DNA from: Octopus sinensis
Lineage: Eukaryota
Length of the DNA stretch: 39,143 bases
Reading direction: 5' to 3'
Assembly: GCF_006345805.1 (NCBI RefSeq)
Contig: NW_021835694.1
Span: forward strand, 1-39,143
The position numbers and the translations under genes are program-made. This document shows positions 5,365 through 5,872 of the stretch, piece after piece. The notes under the pieces are model-generated. The model ran no database searches and was not told the origin of the DNA. It saw only the letters and a list, made by a program, of their open reading frames with translations. Numbering within the stretch: position 1 is the stretch's first letter; every line of letters begins with the position of its first letter.

Positions 5365-5872
5365 CGTTTAAATATTTGTTGTGCAAGATTTTTTATGTGA
5401 AGTCGTGTGTTGAAACAGATATTGTTATATTTCGGAATGGTCATTTTGCCAGTTTAGCCAATAAAAAACACACGCACTATATATTTGGTGTTACTTTGCT
5501 TCAGTGTTATTTATTTTTTACATTAATCTTAATCTTATTCGGCCAGAGTTCTTTCGTCACTCTCCTGTGACCGCATCAGTGGTCCTTTGTTTTCTCCTTT
5601 CTTATTTGTGTCTCTCCTTACTAACCGTTACCACACATTTCACACACACACACACTTATCTACGGTTAGTAAGGAAAGACACAAATAAGAAAGGAGAAAA
5701 CAAAGGACCACTGATGCGGTCACAGGAGAGTGACGAAAGAACTCTGGCCGAAATAAGATTAAGATTAATGTAAAAAAAATAATAACACTGAAGCAAAGTA
5801 ACACCATATATATAGTGCGTGTGTTTTTATTGGCTAAACTGGCAAAATGACCATTCCGAAATATAACAATAT
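5365..5872. mobile_element. Inverted-repeat element (arms ~5419-5628 and 5662-5872) with hammerhead-like motif; Penelope pseudo-LTR-like
   Basis: About 210-bp near-perfect inverted arms, 33-bp spacer containing (CA)n, flanked by (TA)n. The left arm has an extra ~55-bp extension. Confidence 0.75.
5705..5749 (+). ncRNA. Minimal hammerhead-like motif (A9C variant); mirror copy on minus strand at ~5541-5585
   Basis: GGACCA CUGAUGC G GUCAC-aggaga-GUGAC GAAA GAA CUC UGGCC: perfect 5-bp stem II, CCA/UGG stem I, short stem III. Confidence 0.55.

What the first reader, a model, noticed from the sequence alone, without database searches (positions are those of the whole stretch)
5365..5444. 26-codon ORF start conserved at protein level between two hammerhead families
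Seen: minus-strand 5444 reads [26 protein letters not shown], and plus-strand 23435-23512 (again at 23744) reads MTLPRHNRICFNTRTHIKNLANQIQK*. That is 19/26 identical residues, 7 of them with synonymous codon differences, each about 70-100 nt downstream of the ribozyme motif, although the ribozyme stems are unrelated. The 23-kb peptide is absent from the supplied ORF track. Inference: the N-terminus of the parent retroelement ORF retained in the pLTR extension, or a selected micropeptide.
Basis: partly seen in the sequence, partly recalled or inferred. Interest (0 to 1): 0.8.

Follow-up and report, generated by a model that had tools for sequence, protein, structure and literature searches.

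The report
Penelope retrotransposon tail carrying ORF start
The two matching short peptides are the first codons of the single protein gene of two related Penelope-type jumping genes, left on thousands of cut-down copies most likely because these elements begin copying themselves inside that gene; this footprint is already described, and the peptides are not a new micropeptide.

Summary
In detail: 19/26 identical residues, 7 by synonymous codons, dN/dS about 0.16. [quoted passage not shown] Longer genomic copies run from this ATG through RT and endonuclease to a second hammerhead + ATG + 27 codons + (TA)n. Stubs end at two fixed sites inside the ORF, about +25 and +84 from the ATG, in both families and in a third. 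This is the published PLE pLTR + 'tail' footprint: PMC3846280 says the pLTR and tail hold the first 12-22 codons, and PMC11167929 ties the tail to two internal RT start sites. A micropeptide is not supported: dispersed copies decay neutrally, and family B's stop is a minority TGA at a CGA codon. What remains of interest is a ~60-nt tail in one codon register across three families. Earlier scan notes describe similar PLE stubs in this genome, none this peptide.

The parts
5363..5628 (-). Family A PLE stub (5'-truncated copy): end of pLTR, hammerhead, ORF start, long end at +82, followed by (TA)n
   Evidence: L162 row; same sequence ends full-length L093, L105
5541..5585 (-). Minimal type I hammerhead motif of family A (C3-G8 core, bulged G before stem II, A9 replaced by C family-wide); activity untested
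   Evidence: (34 of 41 motif hits in A-picked loci carry this core)
5367..5444 (-). Codons 1-26 of the family A RT-endonuclease ORF (the flagged peptide)
5363..5418 (-). The 'tail': +27 to +82, between the short and the long 3' end of family A copies
5662..5872 (+). Inverted 5'-truncated family A copy with hammerhead (5705-5749) and codons 1-9 only (5847-5872, short end +26), followed by (TA)n
23074..23215 (-). Inverted family B copy with hammerhead and codons 1-8/9 (ATG at 23101; short end), followed by (TA)n
   Evidence: (I13)
23321..23518 (+). Family B PLE stub: hammerhead, ORF start, long end at +84
   Evidence: L192 row
23328..23364 (+). Minimal type I hammerhead motif of family B (U3-A8 core variant, bulged G before stem II); activity untested
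   Evidence: (29 of 34 motif hits in B-picked loci); U3-A8 variant described in PMC4209133
23435..23512 (+). Codons 1-26 of the family B ORF; codon 27 is TGA here but CGA in 24 of 29 sampled copies
23630..23827 (+). Second family B stub (ATG 23744), part of a 309-bp local tandem duplication (23275-23930); not an independent insertion

Best explanation
The two peptides are codons 1-26 of the single reverse-transcriptase/endonuclease gene of two related Penelope-like retrotransposon families, and they sit at the end of short genomic stubs likely because reverse transcription starts inside that gene. Shown: a complete copy reads pLTR with hammerhead, ATG, N-terminal region, RT, GIY-YIG endonuclease, pLTR with hammerhead, ATG again, about 27 codons, then (TA)n. 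Shown: stub ends fall at two sites, about +25 and +84 from the ATG, often as a head-to-head pair with one short and one long end. Inferred from the in vitro work on the anole Poseidon element (PMC11167929): the element is transcribed as a partial tandem that reads into the next ORF; the protein binds the RNA near the ORF start, nicks AT-rich DNA and primes cDNA at either of two internal sites; early termination leaves ~200-270-nt stubs holding hammerhead and ORF start. Inferred: the codon-position bias reflects purifying selection on the full-length source elements, where these codons are translated; the stubs are passengers and decay neutrally.
For: Family A: 2 of 30 loci with the exact peptide continue into the same ORF; L004 gives 224 open codons. 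L105 runs ATG 2133 - N-terminus - RT - endonuclease - ATG 6685 + 27 codons, with frameshifts. L093 ends ORF stop 6291, hammerhead 6768, ATG 6903, tail, (TA)n. Family B: L036 continues to codon 70; L145 and L147 run from the ATG into RT, and L143, L145 and L155 reach the endonuclease. Family C (L096) has a homologous start in one 608-codon open frame that reaches the RT motifs. End sites, in copies picked on upstream DNA only: A 45 ends, 22 short, 23 long, 0 other; B 57 ends, 34 short, 22 long, 1 other. C: 12 of 32 ends at +33-35 and 20 at +93-94, equal to +24-26 and +84-85 in A numbering. A public run shows TA-repeat loose ends at +26 and +82 and about 1000-fold lower summed depth past the tail. 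Rare substitutions in stubs show no synonymous excess: A 1 synonymous, 13 non-synonymous, 2 stops; B 9, 32, 1; neutral expectation 19-25%. Literature: PMC3846280, PMC11167929, PMC8557442.
Against: No family A or B copy among those fetched has one unbroken frame from the ATG to the RT active site; the link rests on colinear copies with frameshifts and stops. Pfam hits are below the curated cut-offs (RVT_1 E=0.0016, GIY-YIG E=0.0026), so the PLE call rests on motifs and architecture. The tail is ~60 nt rather than the 30-40 nt in print. Internal RT initiation was shown for a Poseidon-clade element, not for these families.
Confidence: 0.96

Rival explanations
1. A selected 26-aa micropeptide is expressed from the dispersed stubs.
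For: ATG-initiated frame with codon-position bias; a stop at codon 27 in the window's family B copies; at least 150 exact-peptide copies per family (these were selected as best hits).
Against: No conserved stop: family A runs into (TA)n; family B codon 27 is CGA 24, TGA 2, CCA 2, CGG 1 of 29, so the stop is likely CpG decay. 11 of 23 A copies and 7 of 21 B copies picked on upstream DNA have an indel, stop or lost ATG. No synonymous excess among rare changes. About half of all ends hold only 8-9 codons.
Confidence: 0.02
2. The conservation is purely at RNA or DNA level (a cis motif for priming) and the protein match is a by-product.
For: The tail is among the better-conserved parts of the ORF between A and B (75% nt; 82 of 946 sliding windows as high). 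Synonymous divergence in codons 9-28 (pS 0.33-0.57) is lower than in most other stretches (0.62-1.0). Both end sites keep their register in three families.
Against: Changes concentrate on third positions and other frames match worse. The frame continues into a conserved ORF. The synonymous deficit is not significant: Fisher p=0.26, 0.08, 0.46 for A-B, A-C, B-C. No shared RNA fold lies within the tail.
Confidence: 0.03
3. The stubs are dedicated non-autonomous elements (retrozyme- or SINE-like) that are copied from each other by the PLE protein, not truncated copies of the full-length element.
For: Stubs outnumber ORF-bearing copies heavily (19,632 vs 207 first-look candidates; ~1000-fold depth drop). 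One family B locus is a short head-to-tail tandem (L036). bioRxiv 10.64898/2026.07.22.740005 argues that animal retrozymes derive from PLE pLTRs.
Against: 5' ends vary from copy to copy, as expected from truncation; no fixed monomer length was seen. The sequence is the same as the 3' end of full-length copies. This rival does not change what the peptide is.
Confidence: 0.15

Closest known systems
Endonuclease-positive PLE insertions with pLTR, inverted pLTR and tail, Adineta vaga Pen2a (PMC3846280; passages read)
   Same: The pLTR holds the first ORF codons (12 aa there, 8-9 here) and the tail extends them (22 aa there, 27-28 here). An inverted truncated pLTR lies at the 5' end and the tail is on one side only. 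Asn-rich inserts occur in some ORFs, as in family A.
   Different: Tail 31 bp there, about 60 nt here. Those are rotifer Penelope elements; no target-site duplication can be read here because the flanks are microsatellite.
Poseidon of Anolis carolinensis, PAc (PMC11167929; parts 1-2 of 4 read)
   Same: RT + C-terminal GIY-YIG ORF; hammerhead at the pLTR-ORF junction; two 3' ends inside the ORF bounding the tail; AT-rich targets.
   Different: There the hammerhead overlaps the start codon and one initiation site lies at +111-118; here the cleavage site is 56-101 nt upstream of the ATG and the ends are at about +25 and +84. These families have a Zn-finger-like linker that Penelope/Poseidon lack (PMC8557442).
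Neptune/Nematis clades of C-terminal EN+ PLEs (as defined in PMC8557442; passages and Introduction read)
   Same: C-terminal GIY-YIG with CCHH motif, CX2-5CxxC linker (CX4CxxC in A, CX3CxxC in C), hammerhead, (TA)n targets.
   Different: No tree with named clade members was built, so Neptune versus Nematis is not settled; DKG appears as DKS.
Minimal hammerheads of metazoan PLEs (PMC4209133; parts 1-2 of 4 read)
   Same: Type I minimal motif, bulged base between positions 9 and 10.1, G10.1-C11.1 pair, short or palindromic helix III, U3-A8 variant (family B).
   Different: Family C mostly has G3-C8 and family A has A9C; neither variant was seen in the parts read. Cleavage untested.

Membership tests
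EN+ Penelope-like element | Single ORF with RT | tested here: met
   YVDD, DVVSLYPSID and DKS motifs in 789-1120-aa open frames; Pfam RVT_1 E=0.0016, below the curated cut-off
EN+ Penelope-like element | GIY-YIG endonuclease in the same ORF, with CCHH motif and catalytic R, H, E, N | tested here: met
   C-terminal domain with two Cys between the GIY- and YIG-like motifs, two later His, and R, H, E, N; Pfam GIY-YIG E=0.0026, below cut-off
EN+ Penelope-like element | pLTRs from partial tandems, inverted 5'-truncated copy | tested here: met
   L105 partial tandem and L093 with inverted piece; head-to-head pairs in the window and loci
EN+ Penelope-like element | Optional 3' tail, usually on one end only | tested here: met
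   Two end classes; short+long in 9 of 12 (A) and 13 of 17 (B) head-to-head pairs. Length ~60 nt, longer than the 30-40 nt in print
EN+ Penelope-like element | Hammerhead motif in the pLTR | tested here: met
   Motif with paired changes across three families; Rfam listed no hammerhead match in the window at E up to 1; cleavage not tested
EN+ Penelope-like element | RT groups with PLE/telomerase RTs in a tree | not tested
EN+ Penelope-like element | Retained spliceosomal intron near the ORF start | tested here: inconclusive
   No splice-type joint listed in contigs of 4 runs laid on L105:1700-2900; none of the runs is on record as RNA
Neptune/Nematis clades | CX2-5CxxC linker before a C-terminal EN; microsatellite targets | tested here: met
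   Linker in A and C; (TA)n follows 41 of 45 A ends and 18 of 57 B ends
Neptune/Nematis clades | Phylogenetic placement with named members | not tested
   No tree built
Naiad/Chlamys | N-terminal endonuclease, no canonical hammerhead | tested here: not met
   Endonuclease is C-terminal and a hammerhead motif is present
Hydra clade | No CCHH; CxCX5C linker; DKT | tested here: not met
   CCHH present, CX3-4CxxC linker, DKS
Functional micropeptide gene | Conserved start and stop; purifying selection among expressed copies | tested here: not met

The most novel reading that the evidence does not exclude
In this octopus PLE lineage the two reverse-transcription start sites are held exactly 20 codons (60 nt) apart, at the same codons, in three families whose synonymous sites are otherwise near saturation. 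Codons 9-35 would then be a dual-coding element, protein N-terminus and RNA ruler for priming, possibly with the 4-bp hairpin at +91-105 as the binding mark. This would give a tail twice the published length and a natural three-family test set for how a Neptune-type RT picks its two start sites.
Probability: 0.35. Interest if true: 0.4.

Novelty: new member of a known kind. Interest (0 to 1): 0.17.

Why it matters
It is mainly an annotation result. Tens of thousands of short ATG-initiated frames in this genome, which look conserved at protein level, are retrotransposon footprints and should not be called micropeptides. A protein from family A is already annotated as a host gene product (P0004, 98% identical to L272). 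The exact, shared end sites (about +25 and +84) predict where RT initiates in a PLE group that has not been reconstituted in the papers read. The three hammerhead core variants are easy to assay.

Tried and rejected
Rfam scan of the window at E up to 1: 144 matches, none a hammerhead, all below gathering score and mostly microsatellite or hairpin artefacts. PDB sequence search with the family C ORF: 0 matches. Extra synonymous constraint in the tail: suggestive, not significant (Fisher p 0.26, 0.08, 0.46; only three, non-independent family pairs). Conserved RNA structure at the ORF start: single folds disagree (z -2.1, +0.4, -0.8); the alignment fold gives nothing inside the tail and a 4-bp hairpin at +91-105 whose covariation is matched by 81 of 500 shuffles. 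Expression: no RNA holder listed; four contig sets laid cannot show strand, starts, ribozyme cleavage or splicing. The '14 of 18 broken' count for family A was inflated by an alignment artefact at the ATG and was replaced by 11 of 23. First-look candidate numbers (19,632; 20,140; 12,158) are not copy numbers and probably overlap between A and B. Literature searches found no paper on these octopus families or on a 60-nt tail; subscription papers (e.g. Arkhipova 2006, Lunse 2017, recalled, not seen) and all supplements were not read. The O. vulgaris repeat library (PMC13282606 lists 31 recently active Penelope-like families) may already hold these families.

Full report
Observation. The two peptides are in the sequence as described, at 5367-5444 (minus) and at 23435-23512 and 23744-23821 (plus). 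They share 19 of 26 residues, 7 through synonymous codons. The 21 nucleotide differences fall 5, 4 and 12 on codon positions 1, 2 and 3, and the other five frames share 9, 10, 11, 15 and 10 of 25 residues. The third-position excess has p=0.021. A randomisation that places 21 changes at random reached 19 identities once in 20,000 trials, and NG86 gives dN 0.21 and dS 1.35. The protein-level signal is real. The copy at 23744 is the second unit of a 309-bp tandem repeat (23275-23930, 96% matches) that includes flanking microsatellite, so it is not independent.

Local anatomy. Each site is a head-to-head pair. Family A has a minus-strand copy 5628-5363 and an inverted plus-strand copy 5662-5872. 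Family B has an inverted copy 23215-23074 and plus-strand copies 23321-23518 and 23630-23827. In both pairs one arm ends after codon 8-9 and the other after codon 27-28, and the ends abut or lie within a few bases of TA repeats. The predicted hammerhead cleavage site lies 101 nt (A) and 73 nt (B) before the ATG.

The peptides open a PLE ORF. Searching the own genome (2.72 Gb) with each peptide gave 19,632 and 20,140 first-look candidates, of which the 150 scored were all 100% identical. These numbers are not copy counts and the two sets probably overlap. Of 30 family A loci, 2 continue in element sequence past codon 28; L004 is open for 224 codons. Of 30 family B loci (29 distinct), 1 continues to codon 70. 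Searches with the continuations found long copies. [quoted passage not shown] Pfam gives RVT_1 E=0.0016 and GIY-YIG E=0.0026, both below the curated cut-offs. L105 is a complete, frameshifted copy: upstream partial tandem, ATG at 2133, N-terminus, RT, endonuclease, then ATG at 6685 and 27 codons. L093 shows the 3' end directly: ORF stop 6291, hammerhead 6768, ATG 6903, tail, (TA)n. Family B is more decayed, but L145 and L147 run from the ATG into RT, and L143, L145 and L155 reach the endonuclease; L280, L281 and L285 have an RT-endonuclease body about 55-60% identical to A followed by the family B 26-28 codons. A third family, C, has a homologous start in one unbroken 608-codon frame that reaches the RT motifs and a 1042-aa frame to the endonuclease. 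No A or B copy among those fetched has one unbroken frame from ATG to YVDD. The N-terminal region aligns with relatives from ENA assemblies. A protein named from Octopus vulgaris is 98% identical to family A, so the host is most likely an octopus.

Why the stubs keep exactly these codons. I picked 30 loci per family using only upstream, non-coding DNA and dropped 2 (A) and 1 (B) overlapping loci; the window's own copies and at least one pair of near-identical contigs remain in the set. In A, 45 ends downstream of the ATG split into 22 short (+15-38, mode +26) and 23 long (+76-90, modes +82 and +85), none elsewhere. In B, 57 ends split 34 short (mode +27/28), 22 long (mostly +84-87) and 1 other. 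Head-to-head pairs are short+long in 9 of 12 (A) and 13 of 17 (B) cases, and TA repeats follow 41 of 45 and 18 of 57 ends. BLAST ends creep a few bases into TA repeats, so the true ends may be 1-4 nt earlier. For family C, 20 loci picked from hits covering codons 1-32 (biased to long ends) gave 20 ends at +93/94 and 12 at +33-35, which is +84/85 and +24-26 in A numbering. Contigs of a large public run of unrecorded kind show TA-repeat loose ends at +26 (20 contigs) and +82 (50 contigs), and summed depth falls from about 1.1 million to about 900 just past the tail. So all three families have a ~60-nt optional extension covering codons 9-28.

This is the published PLE footprint. [quoted passage not shown] PMC8557442 (passages and Introduction) describes partial tandems, inverted copies, a 30-40-bp tail, and the linker Zn-finger of the Neptune and Nematis clades with microsatellite targeting. 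The mechanism for these families is inferred from those papers, not shown here. By motifs they are Neptune/Nematis-type, not Naiad (endonuclease is C-terminal) and not Hydra (CCHH present); no tree was built.

Micropeptide rival. Family A has no stop; the frame runs into (TA)n. In family B codon 27 is CGA in 24, TGA in 2, CCA in 2 and CGG in 1 of 29 loci, so the window's stop is likely a CpG transition. Among stubs picked on upstream DNA, rare substitutions are 1 synonymous, 13 non-synonymous and 2 stops in A (18 distinct copies) and 9, 32 and 1 in B (21 copies), against a neutral expectation of 19-25% synonymous. 11 of 23 A copies and 7 of 21 B copies have an indel, stop or lost ATG. Selection therefore acted between families, on source elements, and not on the stubs.

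RNA-motif rival. Between A and B, codons 1-28 are 67-71% identical, against 40-45% for codons 29-224 and 52-60% for RT stretches; 60 of 946 sliding windows elsewhere are as conserved as codons 9-28. Synonymous divergence in codons 9-28 is lower than in most other stretches, but not significantly (Fisher p=0.26, 0.08, 0.46). Single folds of +1 to +120 disagree. An alignment fold of 9 copies finds nothing inside the tail and a 4-bp hairpin at +91-105, not beyond shuffles (81 of 500). An added RNA-level constraint is possible and unproven.

Ribozymes. Rfam listed no hammerhead at E up to 1. A pattern search finds the minimal PLE type of PMC4209133 (parts 1-2 of 4) in all three families: core C3-G8 with A9C in 34 of 41 hits in A-picked loci, U3-A8 in 29 of 34 in B-picked loci, and G3-C8 in most of 55 in C-picked loci, each with the bulged base and a G10.1-C11.1 pair. 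Stem II keeps three pairs and changes two by paired substitutions, and the three motifs align with 16 invariant columns. Cleavage is untested, and A9C may impair it (own knowledge of the hammerhead core).

Verdict. PMC13282606 (passages) lists 31 recently active Penelope-like families in O. vulgaris; I did not see its library. Of bioRxiv 10.64898/2026.07.22.740005 I read part 1 of 5. Earlier scan notes report similar PLE stubs in this genome and none on this peptide; one of them gave me the lead to PMC3846280. The only unusual points are the 60-nt tail held in one codon register across three families and the three hammerhead core variants. Interest is low.

Noticed in passing
window 12690-12900 (-) and 9130-9270 (-): A different hammerhead-like motif (CTGATGA core at 12758; a degenerate copy at 9210). 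The 12.9-kb copy is preceded by a tRNA-like head.
   Followed up: partly
window 29148-32673 (+): Broken LINE-type element: ORF1-like frame with Myb/SANT and CCCH-like weak hits, then AP endonuclease (E=5.6e-13) and RT (E=1e-25) in separate frames.
   Followed up: partly
window 25526, 26473, 27458 (+): Three identical CTGATG...GAAA stretches spaced 947 and 985 bp, apparently units of a ~1-kb tandem that includes a SINE-like repeat and TA arrays. Not checked as ribozymes.
   Followed up: no
window 4815-4965, 6034-6199, 15533-15704: Copies of an abundant SINE-like repeat; two flank the family A insertion.
   Followed up: no
L092, L093, L097 (family A ORF): An in-frame Asn-rich low-complexity insert of roughly 250 aa between the N-terminal region and RT, much shorter in family C. 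Similar inserts are described for Adineta Penelope (PMC3846280).
   Followed up: partly
family A, B, C hammerheads (L162-L271): The 3-8 core pair is C-G, U-A and G-C in the three sister families, and family A has A9C family-wide. Activity unknown.
   Followed up: partly
P0004, P0062: Family A protein sequence is annotated as host gene product in O. vulgaris: a hypothetical protein (98% identical to L272) and part of a 'dynein regulatory complex subunit 6-like' isoform, possibly a gene-model error or exonisation.
   Followed up: no
L036 (G000:C2:192752389-192752851): Head-to-tail tandem of a ~331-nt family B unit (hammerhead + 70 codons), retrozyme-like; L159 has a similar unit.
   Followed up: no
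window 23403-23408 (+): A splice-donor-like GTGAGT lies about 30 nt before the family B ATG; no matching acceptor or splicing evidence was sought for B.
   Followed up: no
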